DNA from: Planctomycetota bacterium
GTDB lineage: Bacteria > Planctomycetota > UBA8108 > UBA1146
Reading direction: 5' to 3'
DNA length: 38,261 bases
Assembly (NCBI GenBank): GCA_036338595.1
Contig: JAYZBV010000041.1
Span: forward strand, 1-38,261
Below are positions 1 to 4,825 of this stretch, piece after piece. Under the pieces are notes generated by a model. The model searched no databases. It was not told the DNA's origin and saw only the letters and a list, made by a program, of their open reading frames with translations. Both the position numbers and the translations under genes were made by a program. Position 1 is the stretch's first letter; every line of letters starts with the position of its first letter.

Positions 1-714
1 GGCCGTCAGACCCATGCAGCAAAGCATCAGGATGAACAGCGGCGAAGTGACGGAAGCCGTCACCTCTTCATCCGAAACATTGGACTGGACTCTCTCCGTT
101 TGCGGGATTTCCTGTCCCAGGAACATGAATCCGTAGATCAATGTCGGAATCAGCACGAGACCCAGCTTGGCCTGCATCACGGAGAGACCAAAGAGGCTCC
201 ACTCGGCGCCGGTTGCTGCAACGCCCGCAGCAGCATTGCTGACCCAGAAGCCAAACAGAGCGCCGATGATGATTCCCACCGGCCAGAAAACATGGAACTG
301 ATTCAACTTGGTCGTTTTGTTATCGGAGTAGATGGTCGCCACCAGTGGATTGCAGCCCGCCTCGACGCAACCGTTGCCCAGTGCGATGATGGAAGCCCCC
401 GCCATCAACCCGGTAAAACCATCGGCGTACATCATCAAGATGATTCCCAAAATGTGGCAAACGAACGCCATCTTGAGCGAGACCGCGATACCGATCTTCT
501 CGATAAACGGTCCCATCATGATGATGGCGACGGCGAACCCGCCAAGAGACGCGCCGCCGACCCAGCCAGCGTCTGTCGGGGAGAGATTGAATATCGTCAG
601 GAAATCTCCCATCGACGATGTGATCACCCCGAAGGCGACCGAGGTTGCAATCAGCGCCATGCAACTGGCCCAGAAGAGCCGTGCCTTGCGCGCTTCATCG
701 AGTACTTGAGACAT
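1..714 (-). CDS. MFS transporter (probable sugar permease), 3' part runs off the window
   Basis: Not in the ORF track because it is open at the edge. Manual translation from ATG at 714: MSQVLDEARKARLFWASCMALIATSVAFGVITSS...GPFIEKIG...GLGN-like ALGNGCVEAGCNPLVATIY...KLNQFHVFWPVGIIIG; many TM helices; GGAAAAGGGG SD-like sequence upstream. Confidence 0.88.
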   Translation of the reverse strand, partial: MSQVLDEARKARLFWASCMALIATSVAFGVITSSMGDFLTIFNLSPTDAGWVGGASLGGFAVAIIMMGPFIEKIGIAVSLKMAFVCHILGIILMMYADGFTGLMAGASIIALGNGCVEAGCNPLVATIYSDNKTTKLNQFHVFWPVGIIIGALFGFWVSNAAAGVAATGAEWSLFGLSVMQAKLGLVLIPTLIYGFMFLGQEIPQTERVQSNVSDEEVTASVTSPLFILMLCCMGLTA

Positions 715-846
715 GTATGTCACCCCTTTTCCAAATGCTGTGGTCAGCAGGGAGCCTTTCCTGCCATGGCCCTAGTGGGACAAAGGTTCACCGAGGTGTC
801 AATCAGGGATCTCGAAACAGAGTCGGTTCGATTCTGGAAGAAGGAG

Positions 847-868
847 TTTGTAAACAACTTTGTAAACA
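847..868. promoter_or_regulatory. Direct repeat TTTGTAAACA x2, putative operator upstream of the MFS gene
   Basis: Exact 10-mer at 847-856 and 859-868 (12-bp period) in an AT-rich intergenic patch. Confidence 0.45.
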
Positions 869-983
869 CTACAATCCAGGGCAGGTCGGGAATTATTGCG
901 TACTATTCGCGACGCTTTCCCCACCTACGCTTTGAATCTCTATCTTCCTGCGCACGGCCGTACCCGGCCGTGCGCGCTTTATT

Positions 984-1985
984 TCAGCCAAGAAGTGCCA
1001 GCAAACGCTTCCAACAAGCTGTTTCTACGGATCTGAGATGTCCACCGCTCAATTGCCTGGAACACTCTGCCAGGCGCTTTCGATACTGCGGATCCTCCTT
1101 GTATTTCAGTACTAACCTCGCCAGTTCCGTCGCATCCCTGCGCAGAAAGATCCCCGGATGACGATCTCCCAGCAGGCCCAGATTTCCTGGCGCATCACTG
1201 GCCAGGATCGGAATTCCCGCTACCAGCGCTTCCGAGATGATGTTTGCGCCCCCCTCATCGCGAGATGGATGCACCAGCAGGTGGGAGGTCGCCAGGTATC
1301 CGCGCACCCGGGCTGCGGAGACGGGTCCGAGCCATCTCCACCTCGGTTGATCCCGCATGGCACGAATCGCCCGTTCCTGACACGATCGTTCGTGGATGCC
1401 GCCGAGATGGACCACCTCGGCTCGAGTTCCGTCGGGGAGCGGATCCGGCAACAGTTCCAGCGCCTCGAGTGGCAAGAATGGATCCTTCACCCGCCGCAAG
1501 AATCCGACCACGAGCAGACGCAATCTGGCTGCGACGGGTCTCCGGTCCCTGGATAGCGGTCTTGCAGACTGAGGAATGTAATGCACCCGACCCTTCAACC
1601 GCCTGCGAATTTCTGCTGGCAGTTGATCCTCGACACCTCGATGCAAGGCGACCAGATGGTCTGCAACATTGAAACTCTCGATCACACGCCTGGCTGCTGC
1701 CTTTGCCGCGGGGTAGTCGATGTAGAGATCGGTTCCACTCACTGCGACCACGATCGGCAGTTTCGGATCTCGCTTCTTCCAGCGCAGGATGGCTCGGTGA
1801 GAGTGCCCCGCATGGAGAGCGAGTAACAGATCTCCGCACGGAAGTGGGCCTCGCTGGGGGTCGCGGATCCGGTGGATGACCACCTCGCAACCCAGTTCAC
1901 GCAGGATGGAACTCCAGCGCCGCACGGTGCTGTGATTTCCTGCGAAAAGGCCAGGTAAACTGGGGTCGGTCAGGACGATGCGCAC
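984..1985 (-). CDS. senB: SenB-family (TIGR04348-type) GT-B glycosyltransferase, putative selenosugar synthase
   Basis: Family motifs GNHSTVRRW, LLALHA, VAVSGTDLY, IPQSA, GFLRRVKDP, EGGANIISEA, GNLGLLG; GTG start directly abuts the lpxA stop. Confidence 0.8.
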   Translation of the reverse strand: MRIVLTDPSLPGLFAGNHSTVRRWSSILRELGCEVVIHRIRDPQRGPLPCGDLLLALHAGHSHRAILRWKKRDPKLPIVVAVSGTDLYIDYPAAKAAARRVIESFNVADHLVALHRGVEDQLPAEIRRRLKGRVHYIPQSARPLSRDRRPVAARLRLLVVGFLRRVKDPFLPLEALELLPDPLPDGTRAEVVHLGGIHERSCQERAIRAMRDQPRWRWLGPVSAARVRGYLATSHLLVHPSRDEGGANIISEALVAGIPILASDAPGNLGLLGDRHPGIFLRRDATELARLVLKYKEDPQYRKRLAECSRQLSGGHLRSVETACWKRLLALLG

Positions 1986-2789
1986 CTAGACGCTGGCCGG
2001 GCGATTCTCGACTGCAGATCCAGATCCCGATGCGATGCCGCGGGCACTCTCCTCGATGAATCGAGCGATCTCCCGTACTTCATCCAACTGGCTCTGTTGA
2101 AGCAGTTCCTTCGCCTCGGGAATCGTCCGCCCACTTCGGTAGAGCACCCTGTGGGCATCCTGGATGCCTCGACGCAGTTCTGAGTCGACCCCTGCACGAC
2201 GCAGCCCGACCACATTGACGCCGCGAATCGTCGCGCGATCCCCTGTCGAGAGCATGAAGGGTGGGATGTCCTGAACGGCGACCGCAGCCCCTCCCAGCAT
2301 CACCAGTCTGCCAACTCGACAGAACTGATGCACCAGCGCATTGGCCGACAGGAACGCCCCCGCTCCCACATGTGCGTGGCCCGCCAGCGAACAATGATTG
2401 GCCATCACCACGCCATCCTCGACACAGCAGTCATGGGCCACGTGGGCACCGACCATCAGCAGACAATCGTCACCAACACGGGTCACACTGCCAGGACGAG
2501 AGGCCCGGTGTACCGAGACATATTCTCGCAGGATGGTGCGCTCACCGATCACCACCTTGCTCGGCTCACCTGCCCAGGCGAGGTCCTGGGGATCGTGGCC
2601 CACCACCGCATGCATGTGGACCTCTGAACCGGGTCCCAGTTCCGTGCCAGGACCGACGTAAGCATGGCCCAGGATCTTGCAACCTTCCGCGATGACCGCA
2701 GCGGCCTCGATGATGGCATACGGCCCTACCACCACATCCGGCGCCAGTTGGGCATCTCGATGGATGACAGCGGTCTGGTGAATTGGCAT
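1986..2789 (-). CDS. lpxA: Acyl-ACP--UDP-N-acetylglucosamine O-acyltransferase
   Basis: Hexapeptide repeats, IHQTAVI start, PQDL, REYVSVHR, HVAHDC (catalytic His), LAGH, VHQFCRVG, DIPPF, GVNVVGLRR; AGGAGG before ATG 2789. Confidence 0.9.
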   Translation of the reverse strand: MPIHQTAVIHRDAQLAPDVVVGPYAIIEAAAVIAEGCKILGHAYVGPGTELGPGSEVHMHAVVGHDPQDLAWAGEPSKVVIGERTILREYVSVHRASRPGSVTRVGDDCLLMVGAHVAHDCCVEDGVVMANHCSLAGHAHVGAGAFLSANALVHQFCRVGRLVMLGGAAVAVQDIPPFMLSTGDRATIRGVNVVGLRRAGVDSELRRGIQDAHRVLYRSGRTIPEAKELLQQSQLDEVREIARFIEESARGIASGSGSAVENRPASV

Positions 2790-2884
2790 TGGACCTCCTG
2801 CAACTGGCCTCTGCGACCTTGCCGACCAACCCACACCATGACATCGATGGAGCACCGGTGGAAGCAGGGATCAGAGACAGAGGC

Positions 2885-3862
2885 TCAGGGTTTCGACTCG
2901 GTGGCGCCCTTTTTCTCTCTCTCGCTCTTGTGAATTCGCAGGGATTCGGGAACCTCCTGCAGATCCTCCCACATCCACTGCCAGCCGGTTCTGACGCGCT
3001 GGATGTAGTCATCGCTCGAGAGGGGGTCGAGTCCACTGTCACGATCGAGGATCTCTCGGAGTGCGAGGTCCGCGATGTGGTACACCTTCAACTCGTCTGG
3101 CTCCAGATCTGGAAAGCCGGGATATTCCCCTTCCAGTTGCACCGGACGGTCATCCCGTAGCGTCTCGATCAGGTACGGAACCGCCCGCTCCCGATGTGCG
3201 GTGATCTCTTCCATCACCTGATTGTGGAAGCGGCCGTCGAGGGAATCGGTGAGCGCATCGATCAATCCGCGGATTTCTGGCTCGCCAAGGATGGGCCCGC
3301 GAAGCATCGTTTCCGAGATGATGGTGGCAGAGCGTCTGCGAATATCTCGACGGGCCATCTCCAGCTTGGTTCTTCCATTCATCAGTGGCTCTGGAAATGA
3401 GAGGTCCTGAACCCGGTCATCGTCGCGACGGATCAATCGCCCCTCGAACTTGCCGTGGTACTGGTGCTCGAGATGCTGGGATGCCCCCTGGAAATCGAAG
3501 GTGAGATCCTGAAAATAATCACAGGTCAGCGTACCCTCGACCAGATACTGCGCCTCTTCTCGCCCGACCAGTTGAAAGCCATGCAGGCTGAAGCCCCGCT
3601 CGAGTATCAATCGACAGATGTTGATGTCGCTCGGATCTCCGTCAAGGATCTCCGTGACATCGACATGAGCAGTACCGCGCTGAAGTCGCTCCAGGGGATC
3701 CACTGACTTCACCGGTGCCTCGCAGGAGCAGAGCCAGAGCAGGGAAGGGAGCAGGCACACCAGCAACAGGGAGGAGATCGGCTGCCAGCAGGGAAGTCGA
3801 TGCCATCCTGATCCCCGGGTGATGACACGGGTGCACCGAGGTCGCATTCTGGATCTCTTCAT
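2885..3862 (-). CDS. Hypothetical exported/lipoprotein with C-terminal helical (HEAT-like) region
   Basis: 325-aa ORF, GAGGAG SD, hydrophobic segment ending LCSC, AVPYLIETLRD HEAT-like motif. Confidence 0.7.
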   Translation of the reverse strand: MKRSRMRPRCTRVITRGSGWHRLPCWQPISSLLLVCLLPSLLWLCSCEAPVKSVDPLERLQRGTAHVDVTEILDGDPSDINICRLILERGFSLHGFQLVGREEAQYLVEGTLTCDYFQDLTFDFQGASQHLEHQYHGKFEGRLIRRDDDRVQDLSFPEPLMNGRTKLEMARRDIRRRSATIISETMLRGPILGEPEIRGLIDALTDSLDGRFHNQVMEEITAHRERAVPYLIETLRDDRPVQLEGEYPGFPDLEPDELKVYHIADLALREILDRDSGLDPLSSDDYIQRVRTGWQWMWEDLQEVPESLRIHKSEREKKGATESKP

Positions 3863-3994
3863 CGAAGATCTTTCCTCTCCTCTGGAATCTCAGCCAGATG
3901 GGCCCCAGACTGGGCGCGCCGTATCCAGCATGACGCCAGGGCGCGTGACAATCCCTCGCCCCACCGGTGAGCAAGATACACGGTCAGGAGCCGG

Positions 3995-4825
3995 ATGACT
4001 CGCGGAACCCTCCCCTTCATCAAGGCCGTTGGTGCCGGAAACGACTTTGTCGTCCTCGATGAGGCGGACCGTGCCATCGGCCCCGATCTATCCCGGCTAT
4101 CCCCGGCTCTCTGTTGCCGCCGCACCGGCATCGGCGCAGACGGGCTTCTGGTGATCCGTCGTGGTTCCATCCCCCACATGGAGTGCTGGAATGCGGACGG
4201 GTCTCGAGCCGAATCGTGTGGTAACGGACTGCGTATCGTGGCGATGGTTCTGCGAGAGGGTGGCTACGGCGAGGAGACCATCCGCACCGATTCGGGGCTG
4301 GTCCAGGTCCACTTCGACGAGGCGGATCCAGATGGCGCGTTTTCCGTCGAGGTTTCCCTGGGCACACCGAAGGTCGATGCACCACGAAACATCTCGGTCG
4401 GTACCTCAGACCTTCAGGTGACTCCCGTCTCCATCGGCAATCCTCATCTGGTGGTCCCCGTCGATCTCGACTCGACTCCGGAGTCGGTAGCTCGCCTCGG
4501 CCCGATTCTGGAATACTCCGTCCCGGATCGCGTGAACGTTGGCTTCGTCACTGTCGATTCCAGAGTTCTCATCCGCTTACGCGTCTGGGAACGTGGATGC
4601 GGCGAAACGCATGCGTGTGGTACAGGTGCGGCGGCGGCATTTGCTGCCCTGCATCGATCCGATAGAGTCGACGATGCCATCGATGTCGAGATGCCGGGGG
4701 GGACATTGCAGGTTCGCCTCGATGACCTGGGAGAAGTCCATCTCCGGGGACCGGTTCAGATCTGCTATCGCGGCGAGATCAACCTGGAAAACCTTCAGCA
4801 TTCCACCGATTCCTCGATGGTCTAG
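3995..4825 (+). CDS. dapF: Diaminopimelate epimerase
   Basis: GAGNDFVV, RRTGIGADG, NADGS..ESCGNG, GNPHLV, NVGF, RVWERGCGETHACGTG, MPGG. Confidence 0.96.
   Translation: MTRGTLPFIKAVGAGNDFVVLDEADRAIGPDLSRLSPALCCRRTGIGADGLLVIRRGSIPHMECWNADGSRAESCGNGLRIVAMVLREGGYGEETIRTDSGLVQVHFDEADPDGAFSVEVSLGTPKVDAPRNISVGTSDLQVTPVSIGNPHLVVPVDLDSTPESVARLGPILEYSVPDRVNVGFVTVDSRVLIRLRVWERGCGETHACGTGAAAAFAALHRSDRVDDAIDVEMPGGTLQVRLDDLGEVHLRGPVQICYRGEINLENLQHSTDSSMV

What the first reader, a model, noticed from the sequence alone, without database searches (positions are those of the whole stretch)
984..2789. Orphan SenB-type selenosugar synthase directly abutting an lpxA paralogue: possible new selenium (or sulfur) glycoconjugate pathway
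Seen: the senB-like GTG begins at the base right after the lpxA TAG, and no senA/egtB-like or selD/senC gene is in the window. Established: SenB makes 1-seleno-sugars from UDP-sugars (e.g. UDP-GlcNAc) and selenophosphate and is normally encoded with senA and senC for selenoneine; LpxA acylates the same UDP-GlcNAc. Inference: the pair may yield an acylated seleno/thio-sugar or feed a non-selenoneine product, possibly with the upstream lipoprotein and downstream MFS. The simpler alternative is a scattered sen pathway in a shuffled genome.
Basis: partly seen in the sequence, partly recalled or inferred. Interest (0 to 1): 0.78.

Follow-up and report, generated by a model that had tools for sequence, protein, structure and literature searches.

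The report
Selenosugar synthase kept without its partner
A family of uncultured Planctomycetota keeps an intact selenium-sugar-making enzyme after losing the enzyme that normally uses its product, which hints at an unknown use for the selenosugar, while its position beside a second lipid A gene looks like inherited gene order rather than a shared pathway.

Summary
The anatomy is right: senB-like 984-1985(-) starts at the base after the lpxA stop. It scores 247.8 bits on TIGR04348 (cut-off 300), but orthologues in four deeper relatives pass, the fold matches SenB (TM 0.86) and the catalytic residues are kept. The genome has selD, selA, selU and a housekeeping lpxA elsewhere, and no senA/egtB was found. 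In the family, lpxA2-senB is adjacent in 27 of 27 senB genomes; senA is found in only 2. senB is under purifying selection (dN/dS about 0.2). The adjacency is weak evidence of coupling: 98 of 105 sampled tight gene pairs are kept across these genera anyway. LpxA2 also exists unlinked from or without senB, and no senB outside the family lies beside lpxA (0 of 48 phylum loci, 0 of 76 metagenome loci). The sugar-donor motif is unchanged. Best reading (0.55): a SenA-independent selenosugar synthase sharing a mixed operon with an ordinary second lipid A acyltransferase. An acylated selenosugar pathway stays possible (0.12). The scan noted a senA-less senB locus before, on other DNA and without lpxA.

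The parts
984..1985 (-). SenB-type GT-B glycosyltransferase (selenosugar synthase orthologue), 333 aa, divergent senA-less lineage
   Evidence: TIGR04348 247.8 bits, cut-off 300; best PDB sequence hits are SenB, E 9e-38; model pLDDT 92, Foldseek top hits SenB with TM 0.79-0.86; catalytic residues kept
1986..2789 (-). LpxA2, second acyl-ACP:UDP-GlcNAc acyltransferase (paralogue of the housekeeping lpxA on C113)
   Evidence: TIGR01852 287.9 bits, above cut-off; 38% identical to the C113 copy; order-level clade, support 99/97; catalytic H125 and pocket residues kept, K76 lost
2885..3862 (-). Predicted lipoprotein of no known family; probable first gene of the operon; ancestral partner of a B12 radical SAM gene that this lineage lacks
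   Evidence: No Pfam or NCBIfam hit; hydrophobic stretch ending in Cys seen in the sequence (lipobox reading is my inference); homologues lie upstream of the radical SAM gene in G040, G055, G056, which have no senB
949..976 (.). 12-bp G+C-rich hairpin just after the senB stop; probable end of the lipoprotein-lpxA2-senB unit
   Evidence: Scan lists it as terminator-like on the + strand; the minus strand folds at -29.7 kcal/mol, z -5.5, 0 of 200 shuffles as good, but has no U-tract after the stem on that strand
1..723 (-). MFS transporter, cut by the contig end; neighbour only, probably not part of the unit
   Evidence: PF07690; 260-nt gap from senB; not found beside senB in G001, G003, G004, G005

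Best explanation
The 333-aa protein is the lineage's SenB. It most likely still transfers GlcNAc (or another hexose) from a UDP-sugar to selenophosphate made by the SelD of the selA-selD pair, giving a free 1-seleno-sugar. With no SenA, OvsA or EgtB found, the selenosugar is either the end product (a small selenol antioxidant or selenium store) or goes to an unidentified, unlinked enzyme. In the family ancestor senB left senA and came to lie once behind lpxA2; the arrangement was then inherited in genomes that rearrange little, the gap shrank, and senA and the upstream radical SAM gene were lost. LpxA2 is an older second lipid A acyltransferase, probably differing from LpxA1 in acceptor or chain length, and shares a transcript with senB but not a substrate. 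Shown: identities, gene order, presence and absence in these assemblies, residue conservation, purifying selection. Inferred: activity, product, co-transcription, order of events.
For: SenB residues N20, H58, T85, D86, Q131, R155, K158, E231, G232, G233, A234 are invariant in all 28 family sequences; T23 and E239 in 27 of 28 (roles from PMC10891094). Reading frames are intact in 27 of 27 genomes and dN/dS is 0.14-0.33, median 0.20, in 15 congeneric pairs, whereas 2 senA-less senB genes elsewhere in the phylum carry premature stops. selD is present in the same 27 of 28 family genomes. SenA passes its cut-off in 2 of 28. Background synteny: 54 of 59, 34 of 35 and 10 of 11 tight co-directional pairs of G001, G005 and G003 are adjacent in G000, and 14 of 20 opposite-strand pairs. 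LpxA2 orthologues: G002 has no senB found, G029 and G032 have it unlinked, and the G032 copy lies beside a lipid A late acyltransferase. G030 and G033 have senB and senA but only one lpxA match. No lpxA near senB in 48 of 48 other phylum loci or 76 of 76 non-family metagenome loci. An ovsA knockout accumulates SeGlcNAc in cells, so the free selenosugar can persist (PMC11030361).
Against: The protein is below the TIGR04348 cut-off and has lost two basic residues near the substrates: the Arg at SenB position 21/22 in 24 of 24 and R/K61 (to His or Tyr) in 24 of 24 sequences of genera g1, g6 and g7, so the acceptor may have changed. selD co-occurrence carries little weight because 57 of 59 class genomes have selD and this genome uses it for selA and selU. 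The junction survived loss or insertion of genes on both sides and tightened to 0 nt in 16 of 16 g1/g6 loci, which coupling would also predict. The synteny baseline itself contains true operons, so it cannot exclude function. All genomes are incomplete assemblies (79-95%). No natural role for free SeGlcNAc is established in the papers I read.
Confidence: 0.55

Rival explanations
1. Repurposed glycosyltransferase: after losing senA, the enzyme kept UDP-sugar binding but switched to a non-selenium acceptor (for example a phosphate-bearing small molecule or an envelope component).
For: Lineage-specific loss of Arg21/22 and R/K61, and T83 to Ser; long branches for g1, g6 and g7; identity to deeper family members 35-43% against 49-54% for LpxA2 and a median of about 51-55% for sampled orthologues; TIGR04348 score falls from 300-341 in the deeper genera to 164-267.
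Against: K158 (Se-P cleavage), N20, H58, T85 and R155 of the selenophosphate pocket are invariant (PMC10891094); His at position 61 also occurs in 4 of 27 other phylum and 1 of 20 metagenome SenBs.
Confidence: 0.2
2. Coupled pathway: LpxA2 makes UDP-3-O-acyl-GlcNAc and SenB converts it to an acylated 1-seleno-sugar, a selenoglycolipid.
For: Adjacent in 27 of 27 genomes across 6 genera; gap 0-7 nt in 23 of 24 loci of g1, g6 and g7; both genes under purifying selection; both enzyme families use UDP-GlcNAc; senA is absent, so another fate for the product is needed.
Against: One ancestral event in a syntenic family; no independent link elsewhere; LpxA2 occurs without or away from senB, and its distinctive residues (K76 lost; H99, Q161, F162 kept) are shared by those unlinked copies; the EGGAN motif, Q131 and T23 that hold GlcNAc (PMC11237966 passage) are the same as in senA-adjacent SenBs, with no sign of room for a 3-O-acyl chain (that the motif backbone binds O3 is recalled GT-B knowledge); G004 and G005 keep the junction while also having senA.
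Confidence: 0.12
3. Scattered or fading sen pathway: senA is simply missing from the assemblies, or senB is a slowly decaying relic carried along in the lpxA2 operon.
For: G004 and G005 do have an unlinked SenA above cut-off; senB dN/dS is about 2.5 times that of lpxA2; senA-less senB genes do decay elsewhere (G287, G433); genomes are incomplete.
Against: No SenA match in 0 of 23 genomes of g1, g6 and g7, nor in G001 (95% complete); 16 of 18 family genomes at 90% or more completeness lack it; the active site is invariant although g1 and g7 proteins are only about 35-38% identical; no stop or frameshift in 27 genomes.
Confidence: 0.13

Closest known systems
SenB selenosugar synthase of the selenoneine (sen) cluster, Variovorax paradoxus (TIGR04348; PDB 8JJN, 8JJT, 8FBX)
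   Same: GT-B fold (TM 0.79-0.86); N20, T23, H58, T85, D86, Q131, R155, V157, K158, E231, E239 present in the window protein; selD in the same genome.
   Different: About 31% identity; below the family cut-off; W21/R22 and R61 replaced; no senA or senC beside it and no senA found in the genome; sits behind an lpxA paralogue.
ovs (ovoselenol) system, where senB/senC can lie apart from the NHISS gene ovsA (PMC11030361)
   Same: SenB used for a product other than selenoneine; genes may be chromosomally separated.
   Different: No full-length NHISS gene of any subfamily found in this genome.
LpxA, acyl-ACP:UDP-GlcNAc O-acyltransferase (TIGR01852), second-copy paralogues
   Same: Above cut-off; Q73, D74, H99, H122, H125, D126, G143, H144, H160, Q161, F162, N198, R204 kept. 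Two lpxA copies are common in this class; lineage-specific lpxA duplication is on record, e.g. Geobacter (PMC3087551 passage).
   Different: K76 is Ala (Leptospira LpxA has Gly there, PMC7072397 Table 1); H191 position is Arg; lies outside the lpxC-fabZ cluster.

Membership tests
SenB (TIGR04348) | Score at or above the curated cut-off of 300 bits | tested here: not met
   247.8 bits. Orthologues at the same position in G001, G003, G004, G005 score 300-341.
SenB (TIGR04348) | GT-B fold closest to solved SenB | tested here: met
   AlphaFold2 model pLDDT 92; the top listed Foldseek rows (to rank 13) are all SenB, E 1e-21 to 1e-25; next family BshA at 2.5e-16.
SenB (TIGR04348) | Sugar-donor triad N20/T23/E231, EGGA motif and K158 | tested here: met
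   N17, T20, E244, EGGAN, K167 in the window protein.
SenB (TIGR04348) | Selenophosphate pocket N20, H58, R61, T83, T85, R155 | tested here: inconclusive
   4 of 6 identical; R61 is His, T83 is Ser.
SenB (TIGR04348) | Forms 1-seleno-sugar from UDP-sugar and selenophosphate | not testable with these tools
   Needs an enzyme assay.
sen (selenoneine) or ovs (ovoselenol) pathway | SenA or OvsA non-haem iron selenoxide synthase in the genome | tested here: not met
   TIGR03440 gives one partial 48-bit hit that is an FGE-sulfatase-domain protein; TIGR04373 none, but its control rang nowhere; NF041186 none; tblastn with three SenA, one EgtB and two EgtD proteins finds nothing better than E 0.097. Genome is 88% complete.
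sen (selenoneine) or ovs (ovoselenol) pathway | Selenophosphate synthetase available | tested here: met
   selD 348.7 bits with one in-frame TGA, next to selA on C72; not a clustered senC.
LpxA (TIGR01852) | Score above cut-off and catalytic His125 | tested here: met
   287.9 against 231 bits; His119 aligns with E. coli His125.
LpxA (TIGR01852) | Acylates UDP-GlcNAc or UDP-GlcNAc3N for lipid A | not testable with these tools
   Needs assay or complementation.

The most novel reading that the evidence does not exclude
LpxA2 and the divergent SenB form a two-step route to an acylated 1-seleno-GlcNAc, the first dedicated selenium-containing glycolipid, which replaced selenoneine synthesis in this family of Planctomycetota.
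Probability: 0.12. Interest if true: 0.88.

Novelty: new variant of a known kind. Interest (0 to 1): 0.42.

Why it matters
Dedicated selenium small-molecule pathways are few (selenoneine, ovoselenol), and both use SenB only as a feeder for a SenA-type enzyme. A lineage of 25 genomes that keeps an intact, selected SenB with no such enzyme found suggests that the selenosugar has a third fate or is useful by itself, and names a concrete protein to assay. The lpxA link is cheap to test in the same assay. If the enzyme is an ordinary SenB and LpxA2 an ordinary lipid A enzyme, the locus is a modest evolutionary curiosity.

Tried and rejected
RNA evidence: four RNA-library runs laid on window 1-4200 gave only short contigs over parts of lpxA2, the lipoprotein, the MFS and the senB 3' end; none bridges the lpxA2-senB junction, and contigs cannot show transcripts, so nothing is concluded. 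A recurrent partner for senA-less senB elsewhere in the phylum: 123 ORFs from 24 loci scanned with Pfam showed mixed neighbours; three loci share a related methyltransferase, which has no match in this genome. selD co-occurrence as support: rejected, since 57 of 59 class genomes have selD. TIGR04373 negative: uninformative, control silent. SelD as a dN/dS control: my extraction returned no rows. B12 radical SAM as a member of the pathway: found in 4 of 28 family genomes and in 7 class genomes without senB, none in g1, g6 or g7, so it is not required. Sulfur version: SenB discriminates only 10-20-fold against thiophosphate (PMC10702425), but SenC gave no product with sulfide (bioRxiv 2022.04.13.486033), so I see no donor. 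Promoter scan found nothing above chance (1 site, 0.8 expected). No complex prediction was run because I do not claim that the proteins bind. Literature: searches for senB+lpxA+selenium gave 0 papers; senB+selenosugar 8, TIGR04348 2, and two broader searches listed no paper whose title or abstract start describes senA-less senB; the library lacks most subscription papers, and I read no supplements, where gene-neighbourhood tables of the sen and ovs papers could list this arrangement.

Full report
Observation. The window is all of contig C41 of a 2.9-Mb assembly, 88% complete and 7% contaminated. Record titles of 7 of 8 related loci name Planctomycetota. On the minus strand lie a lipoprotein-like ORF (2885-3862), lpxA (1986-2789), a SenB-like ORF (984-1985) and a cut MFS gene (1-723). 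The lpxA TAG is followed directly by the GTG of senB. LpxA passes TIGR01852 (287.9 against 231). The SenB-like protein has TIGR04348 as best hit but misses its cut-off (247.8 against 300). A 12-bp hairpin follows the senB stop (z -5.5, 0 of 200 shuffles as good), and 260 nt separate senB from the MFS.

Is it SenB? Its best PDB sequence matches are SenB chains (E 9e-38). An AlphaFold2 model built on a 13-sequence alignment (pLDDT 92) matches SenB structures first (TM 0.79-0.86, E to 1e-25), well ahead of BshA. Using the residue roles in PMC10891094 (I read parts 1-2 of 3 of the Results and the mining section), N20, H58, T85, D86, Q131, R155, K158, E231, G232, G233 and A234 are invariant in the 28 family sequences, and T23 and E239 are kept in 27. 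H235 is Asn, as in 20 of 20 metagenome and 23 of 27 phylum SenBs. Two changes are specific to the 24 sequences of genera g1, g6 and g7: none has the Arg found at position 21 or 22 in most other SenBs, and R/K61 is His (22) or Tyr (2). Orthologues at the same genomic position in G001, G003, G004 and G005 pass the cut-off (300-341). So it descends from SenB and probably works like one, but it fails the formal membership score.

The rest of the genome. selD (348.7 bits, one in-frame TGA) lies next to selA on C72 (selA named from its sequence by me), with a tRNA-Sec in the genome and selU on C113. A housekeeping lpxA lies on C113 after ompH and lpxC-fabZ and before a Gfo/Idh/MocA dehydrogenase whose best match is UDP-GlcNAc 3-dehydrogenase, below cut-off; that suggests a GnnA-like enzyme (GnnA role from a table in PMC7663294). 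No SenA, OvsA, EgtB or EgtD was found: one partial 48-bit FGE-domain hit, no NF041186 match, nothing better than E 0.097 by tblastn with six reference proteins while positive controls worked.

The family. Of 28 genomes, 27 have senB and in all 27 lpxA2 lies directly upstream. SenA passes its cut-off in 2 of 28, G004 and G005, unlinked to senB; 16 of the 18 genomes at 90% or more completeness have senB without it. All 27 senB frames are intact. dN/dS (my NG86 script) is 0.14-0.33, median 0.20, in 15 congeneric pairs, against a median of 0.08 for lpxA2; the pairs are not independent. In the wider phylum sample, 48 of the genomes outside the family have senB; 29 have a SenA-type match of 398 bits or more, 1 a partial one and 18 none, with only 4 candidates scored per genome. 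Two of those 18 carry a premature stop in senB. Loss of senA is thus common in the phylum, and long retention of an intact senB is what marks this family.

Does the adjacency mean coupling? Three tests say it need not. First, background: in 400, 162 and 93 kb sampled from G001, G005 and G003, 54 of 59, 34 of 35 and 10 of 11 tight co-directional pairs with both orthologues present are adjacent in G000 too, and 14 of 20 opposite-strand pairs. This baseline includes real operons, so it shows that retention is expected, not that function is absent. Second, LpxA2 is older than the junction: in a 50-protein tree (50 of 78 collected, chosen to represent each group) it forms a clade (99/97) with copies from G002, where no senB was found, and from G029 and G032, where senB lies elsewhere; the G032 copy is beside a lipid A late acyltransferase. 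G030 and G033 have senB and senA with one lpxA match only, and G033 keeps the canonical senA-senB order. Third, no independent link: 0 of 48 phylum loci (1.5-2.5 kb flanks) and 0 of 76 non-family metagenome loci (54 with at least 900 nt upstream; best 80 of 570 kept) have lpxA, while 21 and 58 have senA/egtB. Against this, the junction outlived changes on both sides and tightened from about 36-112 nt in the deeper genera to 0 nt in 16 of 16 g1/g6 loci and 3-7 nt in 7 of 8 g7 loci; co-transcription is likely.

The neighbours. In G001, G003, G004 and G005 a B12-binding radical SAM gene (86-90% identical among them) lies upstream of lpxA2; in G003 and G005 it sits between the lipoprotein and lpxA2, while G001 and G004 have other genes inserted in the block. 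It was not found in g1, g6 or g7 and occurs in 7 class genomes without senB, where homologues of the lipoprotein precede it. So the block is a chain of separate modules: lipoprotein-radical SAM, lpxA2, senB, and in three genera an MFS.

LpxA2 pocket. With E. coli numbering from the 1LXA alignment and the pocket table of PMC7072397 (passages only), Q73, D74, H125, G143, H144, Q161, F162, N198 and R204 are kept; K76 is Ala or Thr, as it is also replaced in the three copies not next to senB and in Leptospira LpxA. Roles of H99, H122, D126, H160 and G173 are recalled. LpxA1 differs (N99, H161, K76 kept). Nothing in LpxA2 is special to the senB-linked copies at these positions except G176 and the 172-173 pair, which differ between the deeper and the streamlined genera. 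The simplest reading is two lipid A acyltransferases with different acceptor or chain preference (inference).

Mechanism and odds. Most likely (0.55) SelD supplies selenophosphate, this SenB makes SeGlcNAc or a related selenosugar, and the product is used as such or by an unlinked enzyme; an ovsA mutant accumulates SeGlcNAc, so it can persist in cells (PMC11030361, passages and Discussion). Rivals: changed acceptor (0.2), missing or fading sen pathway (0.13), acyl-selenosugar with LpxA2 (0.12). The last is weakened by the unchanged donor motif that holds GlcNAc tightly (PMC11237966, passages).

Comparison with what is known. The sen pathway is described in bioRxiv 2022.04.13.486033 (parts 1-2 of 4 read) and SenB in PMC10702425 (part 1 of 3). 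PMC13674229, PMC11448449 and PMC3087551 were seen as passages only. A search for senB with lpxA and selenium found no paper; supplements were not read.

Verdict. A real, conserved arrangement and a real orphan, but the striking neighbour is probably incidental. New variant of a known kind; interest 0.42.

Noticed in passing
G000:C42:1-19096: Contig C42 repeats the first 20 kb of the window at about 70% DNA identity and starts with the same 141 bases; its SenB is 95% identical to that of genus g6 (G018). It is contamination from a sister genus.
   Followed up: yes
L108:6179-7759 (G001:C2), upstream of lpxA2 in G001, G003, G004, G005: A B12-binding radical SAM protein, 86-90% identical between genera and under no NCBIfam cut-off, travels with the unknown lipoprotein of window 2885-3862 across the class. 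Function unexplained.
   Followed up: partly
G000:C113:43638-46800: selU lies tail to tail with lpxD, a second selenium-gene/lipid A-gene neighbourhood in this genome that looks incidental.
   Followed up: no
G000:C113:58067-59865: The housekeeping LpxA of this order has His at E. coli Gln161 and mostly Asn at His99, and is followed by a GnnA-like dehydrogenase, suggesting a diamino-sugar lipid A.
   Followed up: partly
G000:C72:39785-43240: bshC-like (154.8 bits, below cut-off) and bshA (487 bits) genes for bacillithiol lie within 10 kb of selA-selD.
   Followed up: no
L220:1486-2757 (G032): The SenA-like gene of G032 has one in-frame TGA in a linker region: broken gene or read-through.
   Followed up: no
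L316 (G287) and L325 (G433): senB genes of two phylum genomes without a SenA-type match carry a premature stop, consistent with decay after senA loss.
   Followed up: partly
L225, L320, L327 (G099, G090, G209): Three phylum senB loci have a related class I methyltransferase (42-45% identical to each other) next to senB, in G090 with a radical SAM gene; a methylated selenosugar is a possible lead.
   Followed up: no
L045: A record titled as Bacillota carries the same purM-dapF-lipoprotein-lpxA2-senB-MFS block at 84-99% protein identity; the label is probably wrong.
   Followed up: no
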